The position numbers and the translations under genes were made by a program. Shown here piece by piece: positions 84 to 35,969 of a DNA stretch of 35,969 nucleotides. Under the pieces are notes generated by a model. It was not told the DNA's origin and ran no database searches. It worked only from the letters and a program-made list of their open reading frames with translations. Each line of letters opens with the position of its first letter. The stretch's first letter is position 1. This DNA is from Spizellomyces punctatus DAOM BR117 (Eukaryota). The stretch lies in assembly GCA_000182565.2 (NCBI GenBank), contig KQ257462.1, one strand, 5' to 3'.

Positions 84-1925
84 ATGGCCGCTGTATCTGT
101 TGACCAGAACAGTCTGTACCTTCAGCAGTCATCAACGAGCCCACGGTCATTGCAACGTCCTCACATGCCGCAACAACAACAGCAACAGCAACACCAGCAG
201 CAACACCAGCAACACCCGCAGAGTGCGAGTGTCCCTAGCGGCCATTCCTTGTAAGTCACGTGTATGATCGAGACTCTGATGGTAATGGAGATTTTAAAAT
301 GTATGGATGTTTGTAGGCCGTACACGTCTTCCCAAGCGCAGGCGCAGGGACAGACAATGATGGGCTCGCCTACGGTTCCCATGCCAGCCGACTATGCGTC
401 GCGAAAGCTTTGCATTGATACGGCTGTGACAAGAGGGCCGTACGAAGCGGCTGGCCCGTCGACTTCATACTTTTCGCTCCCAGCCATGCCATCGCCGACT
501 CGGCGACGACGCGGCGATCATATGGGATCCTTTGCGGTCAGCGTCGGCCCATTTTTCAAGCCAACGAAGCAAATCTACAACATTTACAGCATTGATCGGA
601 CTCGATTGTACACACTGCGGATCAACCCCAAAGTCGATCGCGGCTTCTTTCTCGCGGACAATGACTGGACATGCTACCGTCGAAATTACTTTCAAGTGTC
701 GAGCGCCTTTTCGGCTGCCGATGCCCACGGCCAAGAGGTTGAATTGCCTTGTCTCATGGAGATGGATAACAACCTCTACACGGTGACTGGATTCGCACTT
801 GGCATTTCTGCTCGTGTAGCAAACGGGGAAAAGAAGATTGAACTCGTGCAGCACACACCCAAGCGCGACAAGGGACCGCAACTCATCCCACAGCCAAAGG
901 TTGTGCGTTCGGGTGGAAACCCTCACCAGTACAATGGCATCGGCACAAACCAGCTCGTCGCCACCTTTGAGCGCCTGCAGTTCAAAACAGCAACGGCCAA
1001 CAATGGCAAGCGCAGAGCCGCTCAACAGTACTACATTTTGATTATTGAGCTCTTTGCTCAGACTGAAAATGGACAACAGTACAAGATTGCCATGACAGAG
1101 TCTGCTCCGCTCGTGGTCAGAGGCCGCAGTCCCGGCCACTATGCTGATGGCAACTTGGACGCTCTGCGCATTTTCCCCGTGGACATGCACTTTGGCCGTC
1201 GTCCCGAATTTTACGGACCCATGACATCGCCCATGTCGCCGTACGGAATGACGTCACCAATGTACTCGCCTGTGACGCCTGGAGGGCAGATGATGTCTCC
1301 TGGAAGTCCGGGGATACCGATTCCATCGCCACATTACCATTCGCACATGCCTGGCGGAGCCAGCATGTCCGCACCCACCGGTCCAGGTGGGCTAGACTTT
1401 GTCCAGCGGGGACACGGCGGTGATGGATCTCATTGGAACCGGGCTCGGGCGCATTCTCTGGCAGAGTCCGACTCTTCTTTCACGACAACGGGAACGAACG
1501 CGACTGCATCCTCTTACAACTCTATCGATTTTGACGAAATTGATCAGTCCGCCATGGGAACGAGCGCTGCAAGCCACCATCATGTTCCTCCCCCGGTCGA
1601 TGTCCAATCACCTCCCTCGTTGTCTCCACAGAGTCCACCTTCTTCCTCGGCAACGTCAGTTAGCGGGCCTGGAGCGCCCATTCATGACCTTGTCTCTCCA
1701 GACAACCGGTCTCCTCACGCTCCTGATGGTCGGAGAAGCTTCCACCCGTACTCAAACATTCCAAGCTGGGTTGAAGAGGCTGGCCCTCGGACGCCCATCA
1801 CTCCCACCACCGAGATTAGCAAAATGATGGGTGGATTCCACTTTAATCAGCTTCAACAACACAAGTACAAGGACGATTACAAGGAGGATTTGATGGCTGC
1901 GAATCCCCCTGTGCCCCTATACTAG
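84..1925 (+). CDS. NDT80/PhoG-family (p53-like fold) transcription factor; 2 exons (84-250, 317-1925)
   Basis: ATG at 84 opens MAAVSVDQN...polyQ. Intron 251-316 (GTAAGT...TGTAG) joins in frame to ORF 264..1925. NDT80/PhoG motifs: DRGFFLADNDWTCYRRNYFQV, LVQHTPKRDKGPQ, FERLQFKTATANNGKRRAAQQYY, PLVVRGRSPGHY. Orthology within the family (Ndt80 versus Vib-1/XprG/Fsd-1) is not resolved. Confidence 0.93.
171..215 (+). repeat. CAA/CAG/CAC trinucleotide tract encoding polyQ/H (QQQQQQQHQQQHQQH)
   Basis: Read directly in exon 1 of the NDT80-family gene. Confidence 0.85.
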
Positions 1926-10729: not shown

Positions 10730-11413
10730 TCAAGACAACTTGCTGATCACGAACGATGCCGCCTCTCCCGCCTGCGGGCTGGCACCATAAGAAGCGTGGA
10801 CTAACCAATTGGAGCCGGTCGACGTGCAGACCGGATCACCAGCATTACAGTAGTCTCTCGTTTTGGCAACCCACTCCTGGGGAAGGCGTGGTGCTCCTGG
10901 GCGCGGGCCACCTTGACCTTTGGCGGTTCCAGCCGACGAAGGCAAACTTGGATCGTAAAAAGGGTCGCCGAACATGATGACAGCTGGAATACGGTTAAAG
11001 GTGGCTTCACTGATGCTGCTGAAGGCGCGATGCAGAACCATGGCGCCCTGCGAATAACCGGCTAAGACGTATTGTTGCTCAGGGCAAGCTGCCGCTTGAG
11101 CAGTGAGGTGATCCATCAAATCTTTGGCACCTATAATGGGGCCGTTTGCGAAATCCCTGTCAGCAGGGTAAACTACATTGTACAACGTTGCTTTGGGGAA
11201 TTGCCGCATGATTCGCCCGATGGTGGGTTGCATAACTCGACTCCCAGTCTGAGGTTCAGTCGTTCCACGAACGGATATGATTTCGATCGGGCTGCACGCA
11301 GTTATTGAGGGATCGTTCTTGCCGTTAGCCAGCGCATCTGACACGGGCGCTCCTATGACGGCGGCAAGGCTCGACATCGCAAGGCCCAAAATCGTAAAGG
11401 TCCGGAGAGGCAT
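10730..11413 (-). CDS. Secreted cutinase / cutinase-like esterase (CE5), intronless CDS
   Basis: Signal-peptide-like MPLRTFTILGLAMSSLAAVIGA; C..ISVRGTTEP; CPEQQYVLAGYSQGA (catalytic Ser); MFGDP; CNAGDPVC (Asp); VHASYG (His). True ATG at 11413. Confidence 0.93.
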   Translation of the reverse strand: MPLRTFTILGLAMSSLAAVIGAPVSDALANGKNDPSITACSPIEIISVRGTTEPQTGSRVMQPTIGRIMRQFPKATLYNVVYPADRDFANGPIIGAKDLMDHLTAQAAACPEQQYVLAGYSQGAMVLHRAFSSISEATFNRIPAVIMFGDPFYDPSLPSSAGTAKGQGGPRPGAPRLPQEWVAKTRDYCNAGDPVCTSTGSNWLVHASYGASPQAGEAASFVISKLS

Positions 11414-11425
11414 CACTGGCAACGG

Positions 11426-17558: not shown

Positions 17559-20500
17559 ATGACAGAAGCTGTTTCACAAGAGGCACTGACGCTGGACGAA
17601 AGTTTGAAACATACAGCAGCACCTGTATTAAATGAAGCGCAAAACCAGAAAGCTAGGAAAGAGGGGAACGAAGAGAGTAGGACGGGACATCCTGATGGCG
17701 TTGGACATAAAGTCCCCTTCCTGACGTCGGAGATCGCCCAACTGGGTGGTCGACCGGATGACCTTGTGCAAACGACTGAGACCACCAATGGTAAACCTGA
17801 GCCTCCAGCGCCTGCGATAGAAAATGAACCCAAGCCTGAGCCAATAGAACATATGGACCCGGTCGTCGCCATACAGGGTACCGACGAGGGCGACAGCATC
17901 CCATTACTCTCTACCACCGCACGTAGAGTATGGCGGCAACGGAAACTCGACTGGAGAACAACTGTTGTAACGCGGTGGCCGTGGATAAGACCGTATTGGG
18001 AACGTGTAGAGTTTGGTCTCAGCCTTCTGCCGCCGGGCTGGCCGGAAAAGCTACCCATTTTGGCGATCGCATTTTTGTTTTCCCCTCGTCTTTTTGCTGT
18101 GCTGTGTGCGATAAGTGTGGCTACGCTACTGGGTTACATGTGGGGAGTTACCTCTGGAAAGGGTTCTGGGGGGCTTCCAAACACCTTATCATGGGACCAT
18201 CGTATGGACCAGGATCGAGGACTTGAAGTAGGTTGTCAGACGCGATATTATGGGATTCACGAGTTGTCTGATCATGATTAGGCGCTTAAGGTTCCTGTTG
18301 ATATGTCAGCATTCTCCGTTTCTCCAAGCGTCCACAATGCGTTAGAACAATTCTGTGGTCATATTGTGAGGGACTTCATCAATAACTGGTACAGCAACAT
18401 CAATCATTCAGGCAGCACGGACTTTCCCGAAGCGGTCCATGCAAGCGTACGGCATGTCTTCATAAAGTTGGGGACATCTACTAATGAAATACGCCCGACC
18501 GCGCTAGCGTTACCAGTTTTCCAAACTATTATTCTTCATATGGTAAGAAACCGTTAAATCCGTACAGGGTCACCATTTCAACTCGCTGACACGCGTTTAC
18601 ATTAGCGAGAATATCGCGTCTTTGAGTCTTCTTCGCTGCAGCTTGATGAGTATCTGTCTCGAAACCCCAATTCTGCCTTTAATCTTCACCGCACGAAAGA
18701 CCAAATCTTTGAACATCTTCGAAGGTTGTCCATGCATCTGGCGGTCGAACTTCTCCCTCGTGGAGATAGATGCAGTCCGATGGTTTTTGCATTTGTCCAG
18801 GAAATATTGGCAACGTCTGTTCTGCTGCCAATCGTTGAGATGTGCAGTGATAGCGATTGGATCAATCGGCAGTTGCTGACGTTCCTTAGAAAATCACAAG
18901 CGAGCGCCGTTGCCATGGCTAGCAAGCAAACCGGATCTACAGGATCGCCACAGCCAGGTTTGTGGGCTCCTTCAAGAAAAGATAGTAGTGGAGAACAGGT
19001 GTACGTCAAAGGTAGGCTGAAAATTCGATCTTGGTCGGAATGCGTTTTCTTTTGGCCATGCTCACTCGTAGGGCCTTGTATAGTTGTCGAAGCTCGAAGA
19101 CTGCCCATTGCTGATATGTATGGATTATATTGTTCGCTCCTCTGCGGTACAAAGGTGCAGAGAAGCCGTAAAATAAACGCGGAATCAAATCCAATGTGGA
19201 TGGAGGAGTTCCGATTGTAAGTGAGAACTAATTCAACCGGTAAACCCAGCATTAAAAGGATCTATCATTTAGCGATTGGGACAATGACGATGCTAATGGT
19301 GGTGTAGACGGAATAGTGGTGGATTTGCTGGAGTCGAGGTTAATCAAAGGTAAACCGTGGACTTGTTGTGCCGCGTTCAAGTTTCCTGAGATTCCGCAAT
19401 TCGGTTCTACACAGATGAAATCATTGGCAGCGTGTACGTCCCAATGTCACAACTCCCCCCAAACAAGTTTCTGAAAGGATGGTTACCGATTGATACTGCG
19501 GATACCCGATTTGCCGGTGTAACCAATGCTGAGATCTTACTTGAAGCAATACGGATTGCACCTGCAGCTGGGCATGGGGCCGGCACAAACAGTGCACGTG
19601 GATCCTCCGCAGCACAAGGCAATGAAAATCCCAACTCAGGGCTCAGTAACGAAATTTCAGACCTGACAGCGGAAGATATCCTAGTTCGAAACGAAGGATT
19701 GGTGGAGTTCATGCAATACATGGATGATATAAAGTCGTCCGATTACATACAGCTCTACGTCATGATTGACTCTTTCAATCGGTTCGCGAAGCTGGAGATG
19801 TCAAGTCAGTCGTCTTCGGGGCTGGCCAATGCGATAGAAGGACTCAGAACAGATGCATTATCCATATTTGACACTTTCTTTTCTCCGTCGGCGTCTCAAA
19901 GAGTGGATTTGGAATCTCCAGAACTGGTGGAAAGGGTTCGGCAGGCGGTGTTAGCTTCACCCGGCGCGGATGTTTTCCGCCCTTTACAACAACGCATCGT
20001 CGAAGTTACCGAAAAGCGCTTCATGGAAGGATTTAAGCATAGCCAACTTTATCAGCGGTACCTCGTTGAAAATGGACTGACATTACGAGAGAGCCAGCAA
20101 AAGACTGGGTCCGCGTCGGGTAGTGGGAGTTCTGGCTCAGATTCTGAGTCAGTAGCATCTGCAAACAACTCAATCCCTCCTGCACTTCCTCCGAGATTAC
20201 CTGACGTCAGCTTGCCTGCCCCTGAGCTACCTCCCCGATCGGTAGCTGAAATTCCAGCAGTCCCACCACGACCGACTGTGGTGACTGAAGGGACATCCGG
20301 CAAAATGTCCCCATCAACGGACGCAACACCAACATTACCGCCGCGTCCCCCTGCGCAGACCGATGATGTGAAATCCAACGTAAGTTCCGGACAGGATGCC
20401 ATTCCAAAGTCCTCCTGGAAAGGTGCATCTGACATTGATAACGAATTGTTCACCGACGTCCTCCCGCTTAATGATGATACGTCCACGTTGGAGGAACCGG

Positions 20501-22377
20501 TGCCGGGTACCAGTGGAATGCAGTCGGCTGTAGAGGCGCAGGAAAGCGTTGCTGCAACGGCTGCTAGTGAGATCGAGGACGAGACAGACGCGATGACCGC
20601 TTCTATTCAGTCAGCAGCGCACGTACTTGAGAATCTGGGAAAGAATGGTAACCATGACATCGAAGAGGTGAAAGCAGCCATCAATACTCTGCGGGAGCAA
20701 GTTACTCTTATCGATTCAATAATGCGACGCTCTGCCGATGCTGAAAAGTTGTCCGACTTAGCTAGCACGAAACTACAGCTGCAGACGCAGGTAGAAGAAT
20801 TGGCCGATCTGATAGCGCAAGAAGAGCAGCAGGCTAAGCAAGGGCACCTCGCGGTAGACCTGCGCAACGTGAGGATAAACATATTGGACATGACAGCTCC
20901 TGAAAAAGACAAGGACGAGAAGAACATCTTTGCATTTGCCTCTACACCTACGCATCCCAAATCTATCGTGTTCATTGTCCAAATTGAAAGGACTAACGGT
21001 AGTGGAGGGTGGATGATCTCAAAGTCCTATGCGGATATCATTGCTCTTAATGAGGCGCTCCGCACTGTGTTCCCCAAAGTTCGGAAGTCCAATTTCCCAC
21101 AACGCACACGCGTGACTGGAACGAAAGCAAGAGAGGAGCTATCTCATGAGCTGGAGCGCTGGCTGAATATAATTGCCAGCGACGCCACGTTATACGAATC
21201 TGCACAAGTACAGGATTTTATGAAGCCCGAGAATATCCAGACTCAAGAGTATAGTGCAAAGCCTGTCGTTGCTACTAAGGTGCTCGGAACCTTAAAGTCC
21301 GCAGGAAGTATCCTGCGAAAGGTTGCGGTTGCCACCCCTATGCGGGCCGCTACGTTTGTGGCAAGTGAAGTTAATGCCGCTGTAGCCGGGGTTGCGCATG
21401 GAATGAAAAAGAATGAGCCAACAAATTCAAAGACAATACGTAGGTCTAGCAGTTTTTGGTCAAACAAACCTGCTGGCAGCGAAGAAGATCAGCCTGAAAC
21501 TCTACTCGTACCTGCCAGGGCATCGTCACTGGATGATGCCGTATCGGATCACGATGAAGGGTCAGATAAGGGGCTAGGAACCAAACCAATGGTGAGGAAC
21601 AAGTCAGTCGGCAGTCTAGCGTCCGTGACCTCGCATATATCTGCTGGAGGTTCCGCATCCGTGGATGCCAGTAATGCTACGGTACCGGTGGGCTCGAATG
21701 CCAGCGGTGATTACTCAATGTCCGCAACGTCCTATCGTCCTGAAACTCCTCCACGTTCTTCTTCGGCCCGATCAGCGTCTCCGGCCAAGTCGCTTGCCGG
21801 CTCAATAAAATCTGTCGAAGGACCCAGCGGTAGCGGCTCACCCGCCCGACATTCACGAGAGGATCCACCGCTGTCTGATGCAGAACTTGAGATCATGCTT
21901 GAATGCGTTTTTGGGATAATAGAAGAAGTGTTCCATCTGTCGGATCCGAACCAATGGCTACGGCAGAAAGGATTACACATGGTGAAAACTATTCTGAGAC
22001 GCACATATGGCACCAGTATTTCCACCCTTATTCAGTCTCGACTCATCGAAGCTACCACAGAGACAAAAGTTGCGTCTTATGTTGACATGCTGGACGGTTC
22101 ACTATGGCCGGAAGGAATCTGGTACTCTACAAAAGCGCAACAGGACGGTATTCCTCCTACCCCAAGGAGTGAGGAAGACATGGCTGAAACGAAAATGGAA
22201 GCCAAACATCTTTTCATCAACTCGGGGTTGGGTGGCGTAGAGACAGTTGCTCGCGTTGTGGGCAAGTACAATACGGTGGCTGGAATGACCAGACTATTTA
22301 ACATGCTTCAGCATCAAGATTTGAATAGGCATTTAGTGTGTATGATCATGGATCGTCTCGTGAAAAGTATATTTTAG
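17559..22377 (+). CDS. SNX-RGS family protein (Mdm1/SNX13/14/25-like): TM hairpin-PXA-C2-RGS-coiled coil-PX-Nexin_C; 6 exons
   Basis: Hydrophobic segment ILAIAFLFSPRLFAVLCAISVATLLGYMWGV; PXA (HIVRDFINNWYSNI; FVQEILATSVLLPIVEMCSDSDWINRQL); RGS (EDILVRNEGLVEFMQYMD...ALSIFDTFFSPS...FKHSQLYQRY); PX (IVFIVQIER..GWMISKSY..LERWLNII..VQDFM); Nexin_C (EEVFHLSDPNQWLRQK; LWPEG; RLFNMLQHQDLNRHLV). Confidence 0.9.
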
Positions 22378-22565: not shown

Positions 22566-25500
22566 CTATTCCTCGGATTCGGCAAGAATCCTGGCAAAAG
22601 CGAAGGGTTCAAACTTCTTGCCAGTGCCGCCGTAGAATTTGTTCTGGAATTCCACCCTGAAAGTTACAGGTGAGACAATGTATATTCTTATGCGTGCTAA
22701 CTACAGTGCACCTACCAGTGCAGACGCAAAGCATGCAGGAATGCCGAGAGGCCTTCCATGAGAAGCAAAATGCCTATGGTCAACACAAACCACATACAAA
22801 ATGCAATCACAAGGGCAAAAGGGAGAAAGGGCCCGGTCCTTGTTAGAGCGCTTCCCATCACCATGACCCATAACACCTCGGACAGCTCTGAATTACAAAC
22901 AGTGAGACCAAATAAATAAGCCCAAAGCCAGATTCGACGTACGCGCATGAGCTAGGGACAAAGCCCAGAGACGAAGATACGATGCCGTGTTGGAAATCGT
23001 GCCCAAACAAAATTCGATCGTGTGAATCATTTGATGGATCATGATTTCTCCGAAATCAAAATGCTGCGGGACATTGCAGAATGAGTATCTGAGGGTATGT
23101 GTCTAACGAAAGCTCTTCACATACCTCATGACCATCGTGTGACATCTCTACATGTCCACCATCGCCTTCCTCTGACGGCCTAGGGTCAGAAGATCCACTC
23201 GATGTCCTGTTCTCCGGTAAATTCTCATCCGACAAGTTCGCATATCCTAGTCCCCCGCGCTTCTGGTGCTCCTTGTTCAAAAAATAAGGCTTTGCGAATA
23301 GCATCCAGGGTACACAGACAAACGCCACGAGCAGCAGAAATACTTGCAGGCCGGCCTGAAAATTCGGAAAACATCGCATCACACATTCGTCGAAAGACGA
23401 CTGAGGCCTGACGGATCTGGTTAAATTTACCCACCTGTCCCTTGAATAACTGATCCTTTTCAGCAACACTCCCGGGGGACAAGAACATGTAAATCAGGGT
23501 ATTCAGCAAACCCGGAGCGCGCGAAGGGTCAGGCCAGTAGGTTGCCCATTTGTAAATAATCAAAATCGCCAAATAGCCGAAAATGCTTAGGAAAAAGATG
23601 ACTTGCGGTAAAAACTCGGTGTAGATGCTCATTTTCTTTTTGAAGTACGTGTAATTGCACACGTTCAAACAGATACCGAAGGTCATCTATTGAATGATAA
23701 GAATACTTTTAGATCCCTATTTCATGAAAATACTGCATTTGGTTTCTCCCATGTTCTGTACTCACATGCATGACTCCAAACACGATAGCCTGTTTCATTT
23801 TATACGAGTTGGAGAATAACAAAGCATTGTCCGAACCATGCCAAGCCTGGACAACCAAGTTGGTCAAGTACATGGCTTGGTTGGATAAAGAAATCCAACG
23901 CCCTTACCGGGTCGACTCCGAAAACATAGGTCCATTTCTTTTCACCATACCATTTTCCACCACGTTCATGAAACTCCCATCCGCTTCCGAAAAGGTTCAT
24001 GGCCCTCGAAAAGATATCATTATAGATAAGACCCGTATAAATGGAGAAAGCCCCCATGAGAAGAATGATATATCGGCCCCCAAAGAACATCTGCCAGATC
24101 TGGTACATCCAAAAGCTTTAAAATATGTTTTTCGCAAGGTACTAGCATCTCAAGACTTACCTCATCCTTAATCTTGGCCAGCTTTTTCTCCTGTATGACC
24201 ATCCAGGCGGCCATGGCGGTCATAAAGATACCGTGTCCGAAGTCCCCAAACATCACGGCAAAGAGGAACGGGAAGGTAATCACGGTGAAGAGACCTGGAT
24301 TAACCTCTCGGTAGGTAGCGACACCGTATGCATCTACAATATCTTGGAACCCCGCGGTAAACTTATTTGTGCGATGGTAAGTCGGCGGTGTCAATCGCGT
24401 TCGCAACTCATTTAGAATTGGAGGAATTGTCGACCCTGTCCGCTCCTGAAATCATAGCACAGCTTTCCGTTATTCCTCAATTACAGAGTCATTCAAAATT
24501 GATTACTATATACCGTAACACCACGCAAAGAGTATTGAAGAGCATTGATGGATAGAGTGGGGCACCAGCCCTCTGCAATGAGAGCCTTTCGGTTGACGTC
24601 GTAATTAAACATATTCATTGTATGGTAGATCGCCTTTTCTTTCTTAACAATCGTAGACCACGATTCCATGTTTTCAGCGACTTTGGCAAGTTCAATACGT
24701 CGCGCATTACGGGTGTTATCAAGAACCTGCGTTTGCCATGTCTTCTGTAAACCGTGACCAGAAAAGTTTCTGCAAATTTGACACCTACATGCTTCAGATC
24801 TTCCAGTCTGTTGAGGACCTCCTGCGCGTCCTCACGCCTCTTTTCTGGCCGCTCATCGACTGGGTACACAGTAGCACCCATGCTCTCGCATATCTTGCGT
24901 ATTTTGGCTAGAAGTTGCTTCCCATGGGCAAAAATTATGAAGACATTCTTTTGAACCACTTCGTCTGTCGCAGGATCGATAATGGGCTCATCAATCTCTG
25001 CATAATTCATGTAAAGGTTGCCACGAAGTGCTCGGAAAAGAATACGCTCGAAAGTTCCCATGCGTGAGCGAGGAATAACTCCAGCTACAAAACTGTCAGC
25101 GACATGAGCAATTTAATGCATGATCATCGTTCCACATCTGAAATAGGGACCTACCCGAGATTGGCCGTTCGCAAAGCGCTTTCTCCACGTTCTGCAGCCT
25201 CGCTGTCATCTGGTTGCTCAAGTGTACCTGCTGGCGCCAATAGGTGGGTATCTTCCCGGTGAGGCGCTCCCAGAATGTCCTCAGTTCGAGAAGTCGCCTT
25301 ATCATAGGCGCCACTTTCAATATAAGCGGGACAAAAAGGTATTGTAGCGCTATGTTAACAGCCTACCTCATCAAAAAATATCGCGGTTTCGCGCAATACG
25401 TGTCGCAACTCGGTGAGCTCGAGGTATCTCTTGTTTAAAGTTTCCAATGAGGTAATCATTTGCTGAATACGCGCTTCATAGTCGTTCAGCCGCTCTTCAA

Positions 25501-25994
25501 GCTCATCAATCTCCTGCTGCGTTCTCGAGCGAGCATAATACATGCTGCTATCTAACGGACGAACAGGAATTTCCGCCTTGTGAATTTGGCTTTCAAGAAA
25601 GCCTATGGATATCAAGGTACGTTCCAAGCGCGATTAGCAAGTCATTGAATCGCCGTCCACGTTTTAAGATAACATACGCAGTTTCCTTTCCATTTCGTCC
25701 AAGCGGCGAATTTCATTCACGAATGCGCGTTGAAAAGCGTTCACATTCGGGTTCAGCTGCAAAGCTCTCGGTTAAAAGCAATGCATGGCAAAAATAGAAG
25801 CTCCTTAACTCACATCTCGAAATTCAACTTGCCCAAGCTCACCAAGCTCCGCAACAGTCGGCTGAGCAATCTCCAACGGTATGTAGAGCTTAAAAACAGA
25901 GGAGGGGTCAGATGGCAGCTGCTAAGGCATCCAAGCAGAAAATATCTACCTGAATGAGGGACATCTCCTCTGAGCGGAAGAGGTTGCCCGCCAT
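22566..25994 (-). CDS. VPH1: V-type ATPase V0 subunit a (Vph1/Stv1 family), multi-exon
   Basis: [113 protein letters not shown]. All inferred introns are GT-AG. Confidence 0.98.
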
Positions 25995-26324: not shown

Positions 26325-28616
26325 ATGCCTTCTACAGAACCAAAGAGACCAGTGGTTGGATACTTCCAAGACAATTCGGGCTTATCTGAAGCTAACGAGA
26401 AACAGGCGCCCCGAACGTATGCACATCAAGATCGCAATTTCCATTCTCATCCGGACCAGCCATCAATCCGCCAGAAAAATGGTTGGAATTTCCAGAAACT
26501 AGAGCGCCGACTTCAACGAGCGCAAAAGGTCGCTAGACAGGAATTGCGCTTCCTGGATGTTACCAACAAAACAAAAGGCACTGTATCATCCTTTCCCCGC
26601 AGCTCAGAAGAGGTTTGTGAACTCGTCAAAGAGCAGCTGAGTGAAAGGGGCCTCCTTCGCTCTTCAAGAAGAAATCCCCACGCTCACCCTGCAAGGAATT
26701 TTGCTGCTGAAAGCACTGGCACCGATGTTTCCCAGGACGATCGGATTGGGAAAGAAGTACAGCTACCAATTTTGGAAGATCTAGCATCTATGTATTTTGA
26801 TATTCCTGAGAACCGAGTTCAACAATGCCAACAGGTTGAGGAAGCTCAACAGACACACGAGACTATGGAGCAAAATTCAACTGCCGATCTATTCTGTAAG
26901 AAGACCATGGAGAAGGAAAGTGCTGGCAATCGGATGCGATCGCACGTCGTTAGAGAAGGAGAAAATAAGGGAGTTAAGTTTGCGCCGCGGGAAGCGAAGC
27001 ACTTCGTTCCGCCAAAGTACCCGGAAAATGTCAAAAAAGGAAAACCAGTGAGTTCAGCACCAATTTCAGAGTGTAGATCACATGGTCGGCTAGAAAACCC
27101 CACGGTAATAATGAAAAGGTGAACAGGCAGGTACGCGTAGTACCGTCCGGAGCTAGTGAAAGAAAGGCATCCCGGCCCGCCCGCATCGGTATGTTCTACA
27201 GCAGTATGGTAGTTTGTTATCCAACGAGGGAGGTCAAACATTTACCAAATCGTGATAGTAACACAGCCTTCCCCCATCGCAGCGGACACGGATATTAAAA
27301 TGCAAAGTGGCATTGGGATAGTGTCACATCACCAATCAAAGGCATCAAAAAATAGTGGCCCACAGCGTCAGAAGTCGAAGGACTTTATCGTTGAACCTCC
27401 AGTCAGGACGATAGGCAAATCTAAAACAGGGCTAAAAGTGCATGATCGTCGTGTGGATGCTGCCAATGCCTGGCAAATGAAAGAAAGTGATCAGCGTCTT
27501 CAGCGAGCGTATGAAAAAATGTTGCGGGAAGCGGCAATTGAAGAGGAAGTTAACAACAAGCGACGAAAAAGGGGAAGACACCAAAGTCGCCCAGCGAAGG
27601 TAACAGTAAATATCCAAACCTTCGACAAGCGCGCGTTGGCAAATACTCACCTTGTTTGGCTGTCACTCAAAGCGCAATGAAGGGTTACCCATTTCGGTGA
27701 ACTTGAGAACGGAGTTGCAGCGATTTCTGGACTCACGGGCGGGCATGTTAGATACACGAAAAAGTCTTATGTCGGGCCAATCAAGTCCACCACCCCACTC
27801 TAATCCGAAGTCAGATGCTAGTCCGGATGCTCTTGAACCACCTGAGGGCAAAGTGCAACTGCAGACTCACGGGGAAACCGCTCGACTTGAACAGCAGGTC
27901 GAGGTTATAGTGGCCCAAAAGATTGAGCCTTTACTTGCCAAAGCGTTAGAAGATCTGGAGCATGCTATGGGACGAATCTCGTCGGTACCTGTCACAAGTA
28001 AAAGTGATGTACAAGAGCGGGCGATCAATCACGGATCGGCAACAATAGAGACAAAGATCATACGTAGTCAATCACCCGTAGCGACGGGGGTTGTCGAAGA
28101 TGACGAAAGCCGGGGCTTAGTATACCTGCTAAGTAAACTAAGAGAGTTGGAAGTTGAAGGGGAACGACTTTTGCACGTCAAAAAGCATGATACCGCGGAG
28201 GCGCACGAATCAGCACAAGTTGAAGACGATGTCGCGCCTCAACAACCAGCTGAACTAGCGGCGGTCAGACCGCGTCTTGCTTTATCCATACCCCCTGACG
28301 CACTCAATGGAATTGAGGATGGGAGAATGCGATATATTCGACATCAGCGCGCCGCCATCGGCGCCTTGGTTGTGTTACCTTCTGGCGACGAAGATTTCAC
28401 AACGATAGCAGATTATATTGACCCATGGAATACTGTGCAAAGGTGCGTTGGCGACGTCCGCAGTATCCCACAAGCTCTAATTGTCATGTATAACTATCTA
28501 GCATTGCGGATGAGCTTCTTGATGAGATTCTGCAAGGAAATGCAAGTGAGATTGTACGTGTTGCTGATGATTTTGTGGAACGTCTTTTTGATGAAGAGTT
28601 CGAACCAGAAATATAA
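26325..28616 (+). CDS. Mostly disordered/coiled-coil protein with a Moonraker (KIAA0753/OFIP)-like C-terminus; about 5 exons
   Basis: Inferred exons about 26325-27047, 27119-27188, 27259-27599, 27672-28442, 28502-28616 keep frame. The spliced C-terminus reads LSIPPDALNGIEDGRMRYIRHQR...DPWNTVQSIADELLDEILQGNASEIVRVADDFVERLFDEEFEPEI*, matching the Moonraker terminal helix pattern as I recall it. Confidence 0.72.
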
Positions 28617-28854: not shown

Positions 28855-29411
28855 ATGGTATGAGCATTCATTTCACCACAGCCCTTTTGACAGCAGTAGT
28901 ATCTCTTACGTATTGACTAACTGATATTACTGGACAAATACTTTTGCTTCAGCACCTTCCCCATACCGCCATCGTTCAAGTTGTCAAAGATTATTACGCT
29001 GGAGTTGACAGTAGGGATGCCGATCGCCTCGCCTCTCTATATCATCCTTCGCGGTGCTCCCTTCAATTTAATGCCGACCCAGCGCTTGTTGGACTAGAAG
29101 CAATTCGATCCTTTTCGGCTAATTTCTTCAACGCCGTCCTCAAAATTCAACATGAGAAAGTCGAAGTTTGGTCACAGCCATTGTTAGGAGGCGTGCTACC
29201 TACCCGAGAAGAGATGGATGATCAGGACACAATAACAGTGGCGTCCACAGCTCTGCCAACATTCACCGTGACTGGCAATGACGGAAAACAAGCAGTTGTG
29301 ACGGTCCCGGCCTGTTCAATCTTCACCATCCATGCGCAGACAAAAAAGATCGTACGTGTCCACAATATGTTCGACTTGAACAAGATTTATACCGCGATGA
29401 AACCTGTCTAG
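28855..29411 (+). CDS. SnoaL/NTF2-like domain protein; ATG-only first coding exon (28855-28857), second exon 28953-29411
   Basis: CACAATG|GTATGA...ACTAAC...CTTCAG|CAC. Product IVQVVKDYYAGVDSRDADRLASLYHP...FNADPALVGLEAIRSF...VPACSIFTI...KIVRVHNMFDL is the typical SnoaL_2 pattern. Confidence 0.82.
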
Positions 29412-29728
29412 GTATTGGTATTTGTTTCGCAAAGATGTTGATAACCGGTTACGCCGTGCTGTAACCCACGAGCTGGGCTCTAGAGGTGCGAATAAAATTA
29501 ATGATTAGGGAAGTTGCCCTACTATTATATTTCTATCATTTCTGTACGGTAGTCGTTGAAGTCGAGATTGATTAGATATTGGCTGCTTGGATGATCACAC
29601 ATGTTTGAGTTTTATATATGAACAAAAAGCTGTGATAGGATATGCTCACTGAACTCGGATACGTCTATCATGCCTATATATCTAGGCTGCCACGCGCCCC
29701 CCATAGCATAACATAAATAAAAGCTGCT

Positions 29729-32273
29729 CTACTCATTTGCCGCTCGCTCCTCCGCATACTTAGCTTTGAGCATATCTTTGTAATCCCGGATATCACCATC
29801 AAACTCTTCTACCTCCCCATCTCGGACAATCCAGATCTCCTTTGCAACTTGATCAATGAGGCGAAAGTCCTATATTATAGCCAGTAAGTGATGACGTGCG
29901 ATGTCAACATACGCTTGGCGAGTGAAACTTACGTGAGTGATGAATACAACCCCACCGTCATAGTCATTAATCGCTTCTGCAAGTGCATCGATTGTCTCAA
30001 TATCCAGTGCGTTCGTTGGCTCATCCATCAAGAAAAGGTGTGGAGTTTTCAGGCCCAAGTATGCAAAGATAACCCGCCGTCGTTGACCATCGCTCAACTG
30101 CCGCATGGGAATGACCTGGCTTTTCCCCGTTAGACCATATTTGCCAACCTCCCGTCTCATGTCTTGGTCGCGCCACTCTTTAAACTGGGAACACAACCAC
30201 TGTACTGCACTCTGGTCCATGTCCAGCTGATCGCCCATGTGTTGGTGAAATTGTGCAATTCTGAGGTGATGGTTCCTTGTAACGGTGCCCTGAGTAGGTT
30301 GCAATTCCCCCAACATCAGCTTGATGAGAGTCGATTTGCCTGCTCCGTTGGGACCAACCAAGGCGATCCGCGAATCGAGATCAATTCCAAAATTGAGATC
30401 ATGAAACAGCTGACGACCTCCGGGATACCCGAAGTTCACATCACGAAATTTCAGGACGGGCGGAGGTAATCCTCGTCCACATTCCGAGAATTTAAGTGTA
30501 AGAGGCTTGTCCCAAATCAATTCTTCTTCCAAAGCCTTGTTCTTCTCTTTGTCCTTCTCCTGCCTCTTTTCCATAGCTTTTACGCGATTTTTCGCCTGGG
30601 CTTGCTGCTTTGATCCTGTTTTGCTCAAATTTTCCTTCAGCTTTGCCATCTGCTTTTCCTGCGCTCTCGCTCGCTTGTTAAGCAACACGTCCTTCTCCGC
30701 TCGGACTTTAGTGAAAGTATTATAATTTCCGGGGTAATGATCCAAATGCTGATGGTAAAGGTGGATAATGTCGGTACACACTTCGTTAAGTGTATCTTGG
30801 GAGTGCGAGGTCATGACAACCGTGTGGCCTTCGAATGGTCGGTGGTCAGTCAGATGGCAGCTAGGTGCGTAGTCAATCTTTATTATCTGTCACTCTACCT
30901 TCGAGATTGTGAAGCAAATATTCCTCCAGCCAGACTACTGCTTCGAGATCCAAATGATTGGTTGGTTCATCTAGAAGCATCAGGGTGGGTTTCACAAAAA
31001 GAATTCGAGCCAGAGAAATCCTCATTCGCCATCCACCGGACAAATCCTTCGTCTTTGTTTGGATAAGGTCCTCAGAGAAACCTAGACCTTTTAGAATATC
31101 CAATGCGCGTCTTTCGGAGCCTTCTGCCTCAAGTTCTCCAAGCCTCGTTTGAATGTAGTCCAATCTTACGGCATGCTTATCGGGATCTCCGAGGAGCTCC
31201 GTCATTTCGTCCATCAGGTGTTGGTGTTCTCGCCGGGTGATTTCAAGTACGGCTTCTATTGATGTCATCTCAGTAGCAGCAAACTCACGATCCAACAGGT
31301 ACACGTCCAATGACTTGGGCATTGGCACCAGTCCACACGCTATTGCGTGTAAGAGTGTGGATTTACCAGACCCATTTGGAGCTATTAGTCCATATCTACG
31401 ACCGTTGATTAGGGACAGCTCTGATTCCTTGATTAGTAGCTTTCCAAAAGCTTGTACAGTAAGTTTGTCCACTTGCAGATCACGAGAATTTGGTGGGGAC
31501 AAGAGGTTTCCAGTGACGGCAATGGCGTCGCTAGGATTTGTACCCTCAGGACCTAGTGGTTGACCCGAAGCATAGCTATATGCGCCAGGGGTGCTCCTTC
31601 GATCATCATCCACAGTAGTTTCCGGTGCAATGTCTTCGTCCTGGCCGTCGCCATCCACACCGACTTCTTTGTTCTTTTTTCTTCCAGCTTTTTCCTTCTT
31701 ACGTTCCTCTCGGCTTTTACGAGCCTTCTTCTCTTTCTTATCCTCCTCGTTTGCCTCGCCATCGTCTGCAGAATTTGCGCCAGATGCATTTGCGGCCTTT
31801 GCTTTCTTCTCCCTTTTTGAGCGGCTAGACGATTTCCCGCTCTTTCCCCTCCCAACATCCGATGCGTCGCTACCACGTTCGTCATCATCTCCCACCGTCA
31901 AAACACTGAAATTTCCTCCCAGCGTATCCATATCGACATTCGCCTCTGAGTCTTCGTCCTGATCTGCTTGCTCAAGCAAGTCAAATGCGTTCTGTGAGAT
32001 CGACTTCTTTTCGCGTCGTTTGCCTCTTTTCCGGCTGTCCTCCGTCGCATCTGTGTCCTGCTCAACACCTGTCTCAATCAGCACACTATCCTCCTCATTA
32101 TCTGACGCCGTAACTGGCCTCCCAGACGTCTTTGAACTCTTCTTCTTTGCACTCTTTGACGTGCTATCTATGACGTCCGCGTCTTCCACAGCTTTCAAGT
32201 CATATTTCTTATCGTCGTCTGCGTTCCAGGCATCCTTATTTCCCTTCTTCTTACTTCCCTTCTTGGGGGGCAT
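29729..32273 (-). CDS. ABC-F family ATPase, ABCF2/Arb1-type core with long Lys/Asp/Glu-rich N-terminus; 3 exons
   Basis: Starts MPPKKGSKKKG. Two ABC cassettes and no TM domain: RRYGLIAPNGSGKSTLL / LSGGWRMR / LLDEPTNHLD, and LVGPNGAGKSTL / LSDGQ / MDEPTNALD. Two GT-AG introns (about 30830-30898 and 29870-29932); ends KYAEERAANE*. Confidence 0.95.
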
Positions 32274-34536
32274 GGTGGTTGGAGCAAATGGGGTTTGTTC
32301 GCCGATTTGCTGCAACCAGTGCAAGCAGTTTTACATCATCTGATAAAAAATGTGCATTCGAATGCATGCGCAGCAGATACCGTAAGCATGTCCCGATCGT
32401 CCCTTTTAACTTCGACGCTCTCGCTGACTGCAGAATATTGTGACTTTTACATTGCGAAAATGCAGATTTCATAGAGAGTAGATCCATATCATTTCAGGAA
32501 TTATGTTTCATCTCTATCGTTCATGCCGTCCTCTGGAACACAATTGGCAAGGGTAACAGCAACTTTGGTGGGGTAGACGCAACCATGATTTTCCTGCTGA
32601 CCATACTACAGATTCCTAAGTAAACTGCAATACCTGTGATTCATTCGCTCACTGTCTCTGCGGTAATAATTACACCCTGGTATTGTGCAACTCTCGCGAC
32701 GTGAGCATGGCGCTGGATGACCGCGGGGGCGCTTCCTACGACGATGTCTGATGGTCTGCGAGAGCGAAGTGTAAACATTATTTGTCAGCCAGTTGTGGAA
32801 AGCCATTGTCAATACTATAGGTGTGGTCCTTGTTTCAACAAGATCAGAAAGGGTCTTTCACATGTCAGCGCCAATCCTTGGGAGTAGCGCAAGTCACAAG
32901 AGTTACTCCGGTGACGGGCTGGCGAAGGGTTCTGGGATTGACTAAGTGAGCGTGGGCATTTCCCATGCAATAGAATACGCTGTAGTGTCATCGCCATATT
33001 CCGTGTAGAAGCAATTCTTCCCAACGACAGCGAATGGAAACCTAGGTGCGACAGAATGGAATTTGAATGACTGACGACGGAATGGGAATCTTCTCCTCTG
33101 CGTCCAATGGGGGAGAGAGACGGGGGAAGGTTCCAACGGTGAAATGGAATGAGACAAGAAAGGTAGCATTCCTATCTCACGTCGCTGATATGACAGACGG
33201 AGGAACAAGGGGGTTAGTTGTCTGAAGACAGATGGTTCGAAGGTCCTCATTTTGGAAAAAATTATGAATAATCTGGAAGGAATCGAGCAGGAGCCTGCGG
33301 AGGAGAAGCCTATTCAGCTAGAGGGCCTCTTTGGATTGAGGGACTCGCTCAAGACCTTTTACCTCTTCACCATTTGGAACCATTTCTTGGCAGACGCTTT
33401 GAGAAACTTTATGAATTACGGAAATCTCGCAAGAAGGTGTTTACAACTCATCTCGCGCAAACAAAAAGAGTGCGCGGACATTATGTGAGCGGCGCAGAAC
33501 TACTTCAATGGATATTAAACCTTGGTAGGTGGCCGAGCCACCATCTCCTGAGTATTCTTTGAATCTCTTTAATAATATCCCTGGTATGGCGGGACTGTAG
33601 AAGTCCAACTTGACTCCCAACACGTTGAGCTTCCGTAGGATACATCAAGCACCAGCAAGCCAGAAGAGAAGGCGCGAGGTTTAAGGCAAAAAGCTTCGTT
33701 CGTCCCCCCTGGATATGGTAGCACAATACTGTTGAACGAGACGGAAGTGCACGGACCATCAAAGGGCGCACTAAAGTTTTGCACCTTACGTGCTTTGTTA
33801 GGTGAATCTGAGATACTTCGCAAACCAGCTCAAAGAGTCGTCATGCTGTCCCCATCAATATGCCCACAGGGATGCTACCAAAGCCGCCCGCTTCAACAAG
33901 AAGACTGTTACTGGTTCTCTACGCAAACAGGTCGAATGCAGTGGATTTCAGTATGCACTAAGATTAGGGTACGGGTCATCGCTGCGTACAAGCTACGCGT
34001 CCGAAAGCGCCCACTTGTCAAGTTGAAACTCTTTGTTGTCTGATCTTATTATGGGCAAAAACGATAGCCAAGGGGCATTCTGAATAGATTATGAACAAAG
34101 TGTATTTGGAAACCACCCTGTCAAAGATTGGATTCATTTGTCATATATTATCAAGGTGCTGAAAAACAACCCGCGGAACTCTTGACGTGGAGAACATCCC
34201 CACCATACGACGCGATATGCTCCTCTTGAGAAGCAAAGCCCAGCAAGTCGAGCAAATGCAGGAAAGGCACTCAAACGAGTCGCTGTTTGTATCACACCTC
34301 TTCCAGCTTGGTACTCATAGACCGCGGACTAGCTTCACGGCCTTCTGGAGAAGTCATTCCTCCCCATTGTACGCCATCGAAAATCAACGCTGTGCCTGCC
34401 GATAATCTTCGAGTAGGGCTCGGGCGCGATGCCAAGAGTTGTCTGCTGCGTTCAACTTTAGGGGCACCCCATCCATGCCTTGTAAGAATCGGCCGAGTAA
34501 TTGCAGTGCGACGAAGGTGTTTTGCAACCCCTTACG

Positions 34537-35969
34537 CTATGACATCTCGACTGACGTGCACGATTGATATTGCCTCAACAAACTGGCGGGAAGTTGAAGG
34601 GTTGTTGGTCTCTCAGGCACATTATTGACTCCCATCATGACAACCCTTTCCTCCAACCCTTTCACAGTAATCACATCGAACCCATGACCGGGCCCGTTCC
34701 TTTCTATCCGATTGTCACGGAGTGTGACCTTCTTCCCCACCGCAACAGCCAAGCAATTGATACCGGAACCTGAGCTGTCGGAGATGACGTTTCGCGACAG
34801 GATGCCGTGACAGGGACTCATCCCAAAGATCACCCCGGTTCCGCTGTTCCTTGTGACCGCACACCCATCCATCGACAGGAACGCCGAATGGTCCGACTCG
34901 GCGGAGCCCTGCATAACGACCACGTCCGAGCGGTTGTGGTCAAACTTGCAGTCGCGTAGCATCGTGGCTCGGTTGGCAAGGAGGAGGCACGAATGCGTCC
35001 CAAACCTGCCCGAGCTTGTGACCTCGCACCGCACCATCTCCAAAAGGTTCGCGGAGCCATATCCCACAACAGCCTGACTCTGACAGTGGGTGAAGCTGCA
35101 GTCGGTGAGCCGGGCGGTGCAGTCGCGGCCTCTAACCTCGATGGCGGCCATGACACACCTCTTGACCCTGCATTTCTTCATCACGAGGCTCGAAGTGTCT
35201 CCGCCCACGAGCACGGCGGCGGACGTTTGGGGCTGGAAGATACAGCTCTGGAGGGTGCATCGTGACATAGACTGCCAGACGCCAACAGCAGGGGAGTTGT
35301 GCGAGTGGAAGACGCAGCCGGTGGCCGTCACGGAGGCGCCTTCAGTGCTCCGCAAGCAATTAGCCATGGCCGAGGACTCCTTTGCCAAAGAAAGGCTCAT
35401 ATCTTCCAAGAAAAGAGCCGAACCATCACCCTTGGCCGACAAAACTACACTATCTGGCGGAAACTCGCCCTGCGTCAGTGTGGTGGGCTCACACCGCAGC
35501 TTCACCGCCGGCTCATTCCGTTTTGAGTCGTTTTCTGAGAGAACACTCGAGCGTTCGCCTAGAAGCTGAAGGCTCACGTCTCCACAGAGTTCAGCTGAAA
35601 TCTCATACGTGGCCGGACGTAAGATGAGGGTCCAACCGTCGGCGTTCCCGGGCGGTCGACGCTGTGATTGACTTATGGCGTCTGCCAACGACACAAAATC
35701 GCCTCCGCCTTCTGGATCCACCACGCGCACAGCGCCCTTGAACATGACGCGACCCCAGCACTCCAACGTCTCTGGCTTGCACTTGATCACTTTCGTTTTA
35801 GCAGCCAGACCTCTTTCGGCGGTTAACAAACAAGACGAGAGATCCTCATTTCCTGGCGCTATTACAGACCCCTTTTGGCGGCAGCGACAGCAGCGTCAAA
35901 CACTTGCAGCGCAGTCTCGGCTTGAGAACTCTCATGTAGCCCTTTGGCCACGCGGGCTTCAGCTGCACC
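34537..35969 (-). CDS. TPR + right-handed parallel beta-helix (PbH1-type) repeat protein, 5'-truncated by the window edge, apparently frameshifted
   Basis: 430-aa intronless ORF with beta-helix cap (GDFVSLADAI...LILRPATY) and roughly 23-residue repeats (ATGCVFH, LQSCIFQ, MKKCRVK, LTDCSFT, MVRCEVT, LRDCKFD, MDGCAVT, LSRNVIS, LRDNRIE). An upstream TPR-like motif is split over three frames, so this could be a pseudogene. Confidence 0.75.

What the first reader, a model, noticed from the sequence alone, without database searches (positions are those of the whole stretch)
26325..28616. Hidden Moonraker/KIAA0753 (OFIP)-like centriole protein in a fungal genome
Seen: the ORF track shows only uninformative fragments. 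Splicing out intron 28443-28501 (GTGCGT...CTCTAAT...TATCTAG) gives the C-terminus DPWNTVQSIADELLDEILQGNASEIVRVADDFVERLFDEEF, preceded by LSIPPDALNGIEDGRMRYIRH and a coiled coil LLSKLRELEVEGERL; the N-terminal part has ERRLQRAQKVARQELR. Recalled knowledge, not searched: animal Moonraker ends in a similar 'PW.I....S.EL.D..L..VA.E....C.DY.E..F..EF' helix preceded by 'VPP.M..SI..Y..RF..YL', and it works with OFD1/FOPNL/CEP90 at the distal centriole. Inference: this is a flagellated fungus that retains that module, and the gene is likely to be annotated only as hypothetical.
Basis: partly seen in the sequence, partly recalled or inferred. Interest (0 to 1): 0.72.

Follow-up and report, generated by a model that had tools for sequence, protein, structure and literature searches.

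The report
Probable Moonraker homologue in chytrid fungi
A soil chytrid fungus has an expressed gene, annotated only as hypothetical, whose tail resembles the partner-binding end of the human ciliopathy protein Moonraker, which suggests that this centriole-tip scaffold, recently listed as absent from fungi, survives in fungi with swimming spores.

Summary
The gene is real. Five exons at 26325-28616 encode the NCBI 'hypothetical' Spizellomyces punctatus protein SPPG_09426, and RNA reads splice intron 28443-28501. All 9 named relatives from a search of 1.84 billion proteins are zoosporic fungi. The spliced 96-residue tail matches one Pfam family, Moonraker PF15718, at the model's last 42 positions (E 2.6e-4). 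A Polychytrium relative reaches E 8e-6. At E<=1, 7 of 12 family tails match against 0 of 45 acidic decoys. FOPNL-, OFD1-, FOP- and CEP120-like genes and a separate CEP350-like gene exist in the genome. Against: no match reaches Pfam's cut-off, nothing outside the tail matches, no animal sequence was compared, and the predicted FOPNL complex is weak. Verdict: probable divergent Moonraker (about 0.7), not filed as a formal family member. If right, it corrects a 2026 atlas that lists KIAA0753 as lacking fungal homologues (PMC13358043). An earlier scan note raised Moonraker for a micro-ORF in another fungus and found no tie.

The parts
26325..27047 (+). Exon 1 (start codon; residues 1-241 of P0001)
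26496..26564 (+). Conserved basic N-terminal block (residues 58-80), probably a helix; aligned in 6 of 10 family members; no Pfam match
27048..27118 (+). Intron 1 (71 nt, GT-AG), from the NCBI isoforms; not seen in reads (low 5' depth)
27119..27188 (+). Exon 2
27189..27282 (+). Intron 2 (94 nt; an alternative acceptor at 27258 gives the 672-aa isoform P0003); from the NCBI isoforms
27283..27599 (+). Exon 3, basic region
27378..27521 (+). Family-specific middle motif (residues 297-344), the best conserved block outside the tail; aligned in 8 of 10 members; no Pfam match
27600..27672 (+). Intron 3 (73 nt), from the NCBI isoforms
27673..28442 (+). Exon 4
28114..28179 (+).
28294..28359 (+). Tail helix 1 (residues 578-599). 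It matches nothing alone, but the equivalent region of P0010 lies inside that protein's match to MNR positions 868-964
28417..28601 (+). Tail helix 2, acidic and amphipathic (residues 619-660, across intron 4); matches Pfam MNR positions 923-964 of 964; putative FOPNL/OFD1-docking helix
28443..28501 (+). Intron 4 (59 nt, phase 2), spliced in RNA reads; two relatives' gene models break at the same profile position
28502..28616 (+). Exon 5 with stop codon

Best explanation
The gene encodes a highly diverged chytrid orthologue of Moonraker (MNR/KIAA0753/OFIP): a mostly low-complexity scaffold of about 660 residues with a few conserved helical islands. Shown: the gene, its last splice, a family seen only in zoosporic fungi, and a tail that aligns with the end of the MNR profile. 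Inferred by analogy with human MNR: (1) the N-terminal and middle basic blocks attach the protein to the centriole microtubule wall, possibly through CEP120; (2) the terminal acidic amphipathic helix docks on the TOF-LisH dimer of FOPNL/CEP20 and so brings in OFD1; (3) this marks the distal end of the zoospore basal body for distal-appendage assembly, docking and length control.
For: The spliced tail's only Pfam hit among 24,736 models is MNR: E 2.6e-4, residues 51-92 of the tail against positions 923-964/964. The unspliced read-through of equal length hits nothing, and the last exon alone gives E 0.04-0.25. P0010 (Polychytrium, linked to P0001 at E 3.6e-7) matches MNR 868-964 at E 8.3e-6 as a whole protein, and its single match in the own genome is this last exon (E 0.02). 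At E<=1, 4 of 9 plus 3 of 3 family tails match MNR; every match whose coordinates were shown ends at position 964. 0 of 45 acidic/hydrophobic natural decoys match, nor does the CEP350-like tail. 9 of 9 named relatives are chytrids or a blastoclad. The gene is single-copy. Partner-like genes are present: FOPNL-like L002 and FOP-like L001, OFD1-like L003, CEP120-like; the CEP350/DUF4378 role is filled by another locus. The human KIAA0753 C-terminus is stated to be necessary and sufficient for FOPNL binding (PMC13507227, passage citing Chevrier 2016), and residues 1-300 bind CEP120 (PMC8559671, passages). Complex prediction of the tail with a stand-in FOPNL dimer gave weak support: score 0.35, best of 3 controls 0.00, runs agree in at least 80% of contacts, partner pLDDT at least 52. 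The mark was reached by 51 of 78 solved complexes and 2 of 108 mismatched pairs, but at 0.60 or under by only 5 of the 78 and by all 4 mismatches that passed (of 180).
Against: No sequence reaches the curated cut-off of 27 bits (best 24.6). Full-length P0001 has no Pfam hit, and only 1 of 10 full-length relatives hits MNR. 5 of 9 tails do not match at E<=1, and the three tails are weak (E 0.05-0.26; one had a better chance-level hit to DUF761). No block outside the tail matches MNR. Neither phmmer nor the family profile (only 8000 candidates scored) retrieved an animal protein. The MNR model found no candidate in the own genome's six frames (its controls did not ring either). A 40-residue acidic helix carries little information, and the decoys were on average less acidic than the target. 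CEP90/PIBF1 is reported absent from fungi (PMC13358043 supplement) and was not tested. The protein is 664 aa against 967 aa in human.
Confidence: 0.72

Rival explanations
1. A fungal centriole scaffold that shares only an ancient LisH-docking terminal helix with Moonraker (motif-level homology or a paralogue). It would work like MNR at the tail while the rest of the protein has a separate origin.
For: Similarity is confined to the last 40-100 residues. The best-conserved internal block is family-specific and matches nothing. Unrelated scaffolds are known to use C-terminal motifs to bind FOP-family proteins, for example CAP350/TRM M2 (PMC4357431, passage).
Against: The tail picks MNR rather than DUF4378. 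In P0010 the match covers about 100 profile positions including the upstream helix. The gene is single-copy and no other MNR candidate was found in the genome (these searches are insensitive).
Confidence: 0.18
2. Chance or convergent resemblance of an acidic amphipathic helix; the family has a function unrelated to FOPNL or the centriole.
For: All matches are below the cut-off. ESM Atlas, PDB sequence and Foldseek searches found nothing. An earlier scan note found no tie to Moonraker for another fungal acidic-helix ORF (e1-7351235; not checked here).
Against: The register is end to end. 0 of 45 decoys match. The splice improves the match about 100-fold. Named relatives are all zoosporic fungi.
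Confidence: 0.08
3. It is the fungal CEP350/CAP350 (TRM-like M2 motif) protein that binds FOP/CEP43.
For: It also ends in an acidic helix, and a FOP-like gene lies about 29 kb away on the same contig.
Against: No DUF4378 or CAP-Gly match. A separate locus, G000:C8:742300, passes the DUF4378 cut-off, and its tail hits DUF4378, not MNR.
Confidence: 0.02

Closest known systems
Moonraker / KIAA0753 / OFIP (Pfam PF15718), scaffold of the DISCO complex with OFD1, FOPNL and CEP90
   Same: The terminal region of about 40-100 residues aligns with the end of the model and sits at or near the protein's C-terminus. It is a long low-complexity scaffold, single-copy, in a genome with FOPNL-, OFD1- and CEP120-like genes.
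   Different: It is about 300 residues shorter and shows no detectable similarity outside the tail. It has its own conserved middle motif. Scores are below the curated cut-off. CEP90 is reported absent from fungi (PMC13358043 supplement). Binding and localisation were not measured.
CEP350/CAP350 and plant TRM proteins (M2 motif, DUF4378 PF14309) binding FOP/TON1
   Same: Same inferred logic: a C-terminal motif of a large scaffold recruits a FOP-family LisH protein.
   Different: No DUF4378 or CAP-Gly match; a different gene in this genome carries DUF4378.

Membership tests
Moonraker (PF15718) | Score at or above Pfam's curated cut-off (27 bits) | tested here: not met
   Tail 19.7 bits; full length no hit; best relative 24.6 bits
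Moonraker (PF15718) | Conserved C-terminal region aligned with the end of the family model | tested here: met
   Residues 619-660 against 923-964/964, E 2.6e-4, only family hit; P0010 against 868-964, E 8.3e-6; 7 of 12 tails against 0 of 45 decoys at E<=1
Moonraker (PF15718) | Similarity in the N-terminal (CEP120-binding, aa 1-300) and central helical regions | tested here: inconclusive
   0 of 8 fragments outside the terminal helix hit any Pfam family (6 from this gene, 2 N-terminal pieces of relatives); HMMER filters drop weak matches and no profile-profile comparison was possible
Moonraker (PF15718) | Reciprocal best hit with human KIAA0753 | not testable with these tools
   No animal MNR sequence was retrieved. 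Proxy: the MNR-matching P0010 finds only this gene in the own genome. The MNR model's genome search found no candidate.
Moonraker (PF15718) | Occurs with centrioles and with FOPNL/OFD1 | tested here: met
   9 of 9 named relatives are zoosporic fungi, 1 hit unnamed; partner-like loci in the own genome; other genomes' partners and CEP90 not tested
Moonraker (PF15718) | C-terminus binds FOPNL | tested here: inconclusive
   Weak predicted complex with a stand-in FOPNL: 0.35 against best control 0.00; at such scores a pass is more often wrong than right unless likely beforehand (5 of 78 solved, 4 of 180 mismatches)
Moonraker (PF15718) | Microtubule binding and distal-centriole localisation | not testable with these tools
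   Only indirect: residues 241-400 are basic, pI about 11
CEP350/TRM (DUF4378, M2 motif) | DUF4378 at the C-terminus; CAP-Gly domain in CEP350 | tested here: not met
   No such hit in P0001 or in 9 tails; another locus carries DUF4378

The most novel reading that the evidence does not exclude
The MNR-FOPNL-OFD1 core of DISCO predates the animal-fungal split and persists in zoosporic fungi as a scaffold in which only the docking helix is still recognisable. 'MNR-less' flagellates such as Paramecium may then hide equally diverged copies, findable with a tail-only profile. Chytrids would run the module with a lineage-specific middle motif and perhaps without CEP90, and an annotated isoform that lacks the second half of the docking helix could act as an off-switch.
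Probability: 0.3. Interest if true: 0.7.

Novelty: new variant of a known kind. Interest (0 to 1): 0.55.

Why it matters
A 2026 survey of 184 fungal proteomes, which included S. punctatus, scored KIAA0753 as having no fungal homologue and cited its Pfam domain as Metazoa-specific (PMC13358043). Its methods (blastp 1e-3, Pfam default settings, tblastn 1e-5) would probably miss a match this weak. [quoted passage not shown] If this gene is Moonraker, the tether dates at least to the opisthokont ancestor. The few conserved islands would then point to the functional minimum of a Joubert/OFD ciliopathy protein, and it could be tested in a chytrid reported to be transformable (seen only as titles in the reference list of PMC12659703). 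It extends known biology rather than opening a new kind of system.

Tried and rejected
Pfam on full-length P0001 gave no hit. Word-index homologue searches with exon 4 and with residues 515-664 returned only the two Spizellomyces proteins. The tail-profile search returned 10 chytrid or blastoclad proteins and no animal. ESM Atlas gave no usable feature hit for P0001 565-664 or P0010 290-410, and its structure rows were all TM<0.5. PDB by sequence gave one chance-level hit each. Foldseek of the two-helix model (pLDDT 79, pTM 0.37) gave nothing at E<=0.001. The MNR model against the own genome found no first-look candidate and is uninformative. Eight fragments outside the terminal helix gave no Pfam hit. 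The fusion to a SnoaL/NTF2 domain in the S. 'palustris' model P0002 is rejected as a probable annotation error: here the neighbour is a separate frame (28917-29411) after this gene's stop, and read depth falls after 28613. The block profiles were built from the sequences they score and are descriptive only. The complex could not be run with the fungus's own FOPNL because its domain is split over short exons, so an intronless metagenomic FOPNL (L017, organism unknown) stood in. Literature searches for an earlier report of non-animal Moonraker found only the atlas that reports absence. Subscription papers, figures (such as the gene matrix of PMC12659703), bioRxiv supplements and InterPro/PANTHER assignments could not be seen and may already list these proteins.

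Full report
Observation. The window holds a five-exon gene on the + strand from the ATG at 26325 to the TAA at 28614-28616. Exon 4 is 100% identical to part of an NCBI protein named 'hypothetical protein, variant 1' of Spizellomyces punctatus (P0001, 664 aa). Its cluster has three isoforms of SPPG_09426, of 643, 664 and 672 aa, all uncharacterised. Mapping them on the window gives introns 27048-27118, 27189-27282 (or -27258), 27600-27672 and 28443-28501. Sequence alone does not force it, because the unspliced frame stays open to 28704. In RNA run X9 (about 6% of the run read, 1121 reads laid), 8 reads from 5 start sites skip exactly these 59 nt with GT..AG ends, and depth falls from 21.5 to 1.25 just after the stop. 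The other three introns were not seen in reads, where depth was under 3. Contigs of X3-X5 (type unknown) are unspliced. A profile built without P0001 aligns across the junction at 82 bits, and the gene models of two relatives (P0008, P0017) break at the same profile position, which suggests a conserved intron. The gene is single-copy; the only other match in the genome was E 0.02.

Family. phmmer against 1.84 billion representatives gave 10 non-self hits at E<=0.001. Nine are named: Quaeritorhiza, Fimicolochytrium, Powellomyces, Borealophlyctis, Polychytrium, Rhizophlyctis, Entophlyctis, Geranomyces and Sorochytrium. All are hypothetical proteins; one hit is an unnamed fragment. That these are eight chytrid genera and one blastoclad, all zoosporic, is my own taxonomic knowledge. 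A tail profile added three more Geranomyces proteins. No Dikarya protein appeared, but no animal protein did either, so sensitivity limits that statement. The family is low-complexity sequence with conserved islands: an N-terminal block (58-80), a middle motif (297-344), two weak helices and a tail of about 95 residues. AlphaFold2 models the tail as two helices, residues 578-599 and 621-660 (mean pLDDT 79, pTM 0.37). The second is amphipathic with net charge -9, while residues 241-400 are basic.

Link to Moonraker. Full-length P0001 has no Pfam hit. The spliced tail has exactly one among 24,736 models: MNR PF15718, E 2.6e-4, 19.7 bits, against positions 923-964 of 964. The last exon alone gives E 0.25 and 0.041 for two cuts, and the unspliced read-through gives nothing. 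Of 10 full-length relatives, one (P0010, Polychytrium) matches MNR 868-964 at E 8.3e-6, 24.6 bits. P0010 searched against the own genome finds only our last exon (E 0.02). At E<=1, 4 of 9 tails match (best 1.8e-5) and 3 of 3 further tails match weakly (E 0.05-0.26); these are related sequences, not independent trials. As a composition control, 0 of 45 natural 42-residue acidic/hydrophobic stretches hit MNR. These were 44 of the top 45 of 52 candidates (one duplicate dropped) plus one internal helix of L008; most are less acidic than the target. Against membership: nothing reaches the 27-bit cut-off, 0 of 8 fragments outside the terminal helix hit any family, the MNR model found no candidate in the six-frame genome, and Atlas, PDB and Foldseek searches were blank. 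No animal MNR sequence was obtained, so the reciprocal test was not done. I therefore do not file it as a formal PF15718 member and call it a probable diverged homologue.

Partners and the main paralogy rival. The genome has two FOP_dimer loci. L002 is the FOPNL-like one (62 bits against a metagenomic FOPNL, versus 28.5 and 25 for L003 and L001), and L001 is read as FOP-like by exclusion. L003 has an OFD1-type LisH_2 at 48 bits, and a CEP120 domain scores 105 bits. A DUF4378 locus that passes its cut-off lies elsewhere; its tail hits DUF4378 and not MNR. So this gene is not the CEP350/TRM-type M2 protein (M2-FOP binding: PMC4357431, passages). CEP90 was not tested.

Mechanism. In human cells MNR decorates microtubules when overexpressed and recruits OFD1, FOPNL and CEP90 to the distal centriole wall, upstream of distal appendages (PMC9484695, passages; PMC8276316, passages). 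Its C-terminus is described as necessary and sufficient for FOPNL binding (PMC13507227, passage citing Chevrier 2016, which I did not read), and residues 1-300 bind CEP120 (PMC8559671, passages). The only part recognisably conserved in the chytrid protein is that C-terminal region. I infer docking of the tail on a FOPNL dimer and attachment to the wall through the basic upstream blocks; neither is shown. A complex prediction of the tail with two copies of a stand-in FOPNL (L017, organism unknown, from 17 metagenomic loci) gave weak support. The score was 0.35 (runs 0.30, 0.36, 0.35; mark 0.34), the best of 3 controls 0.00, contact agreement at least 80% and partner pLDDT at least 52; the alignments were not used. 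The mark was reached by 51 of 78 solved complexes and 2 of 108 mismatches, but at 0.60 or under by only 5 of the 78 and by all 4 mismatches that passed (of 180). On eukaryotes it was reached by 39 of 65 novel solved pairs and 2 of 126 unrelated pairs. It shifts the odds only slightly. Chytrids have distal-appendage genes that are upregulated at ciliogenesis (PMC12659703, passages; no mention of MNR in the text or in the one supplement held).

Novelty. A 2026 atlas of fungal flagellar proteins lists MOONR among 52 orthogroups without fungal homologues and gives PF15718 as an example of a Metazoa-specific domain, while noting that disorder complicates homologue finding. It scores OFD1, CEP20 and CEP43 as specific to flagellated fungi, and its data set included S. 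punctatus (PMC13358043, passages and supplement rows). MNR is described as not functionally conserved in Paramecium (PMC9484695) and is not mentioned in the main text of a trypanosome transition-fibre survey (PMC11190437, term search). PMC11937173 (passages) added nothing on domains. Nine literature searches found no report of a fungal Moonraker. Subscription papers, figures, bioRxiv supplements and InterPro/PANTHER were not visible. The scan's own notes hold no look-alike of this protein and one unchecked note on a 58-codon acidic helix in another fungus with no tie to MNR; a tail profile like the one built here would be the way to re-test it.

Verdict. Observation confirmed. Probable diverged Moonraker 0.72; shared docking helix only 0.18; chance 0.08; CEP350-type 0.02. 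New variant of a known kind; interest 0.55.

Noticed in passing
L001 (G000:C13:678530-678628): A FOP/CEP43-like gene lies about 2.5 kb before the window start, about 29 kb from this gene on the same contig; probably coincidence, synteny not tested.
   Followed up: partly
window 28546-28608: NCBI isoform P0004 implies an extra 63-nt intron (inferred) that removes the second half of the MNR-like helix; no such joint was listed in the RNA reads.
   Followed up: partly
window 28917-29411 (+): SnoaL/NTF2-like gene (PF12680, E 4e-8); the S. 'palustris' model P0002 fuses it to the MNR-like gene, probably in error.
   Followed up: partly
P0008 and P0017: Gene models of Borealophlyctis and Geranomyces carry extra residues at the position of intron 4, consistent with a conserved intron that was mis-predicted.
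   Followed up: partly
L008 (G000:C8:740800-744069): CEP350-like 3' end with DUF4378, preceded by long acidic tandem repeats and a further acidic helix; the full gene was not examined.
   Followed up: partly
window 10730-11425 (-): Secreted-looking cutinase-family gene (PF01083, E 1e-33) in a chytrid; origin not examined.
   Followed up: no
window 255-1925 (+), 19390-22377 (+), 34537-35895 (-): NDT80/PhoG-like factor, RGS-PX-Nexin_C sorting nexin and a right-handed beta-helix protein; V-ATPase subunit a (about 23000-25900, -) and an ABC-type ATPase (about 29870-32330, -) flank the gene.
   Followed up: no
window 29284-29800: Strong read peaks of opposite orientation meet here, with a poly-A loose end at 29640: convergent 3' ends of the two neighbouring genes.
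   Followed up: no
PMC13358043 supplement: PIBF1/CEP90, CCP110, CEP128 and others are also scored absent from fungi by the same thresholds and may likewise have diverged homologues.
   Followed up: no
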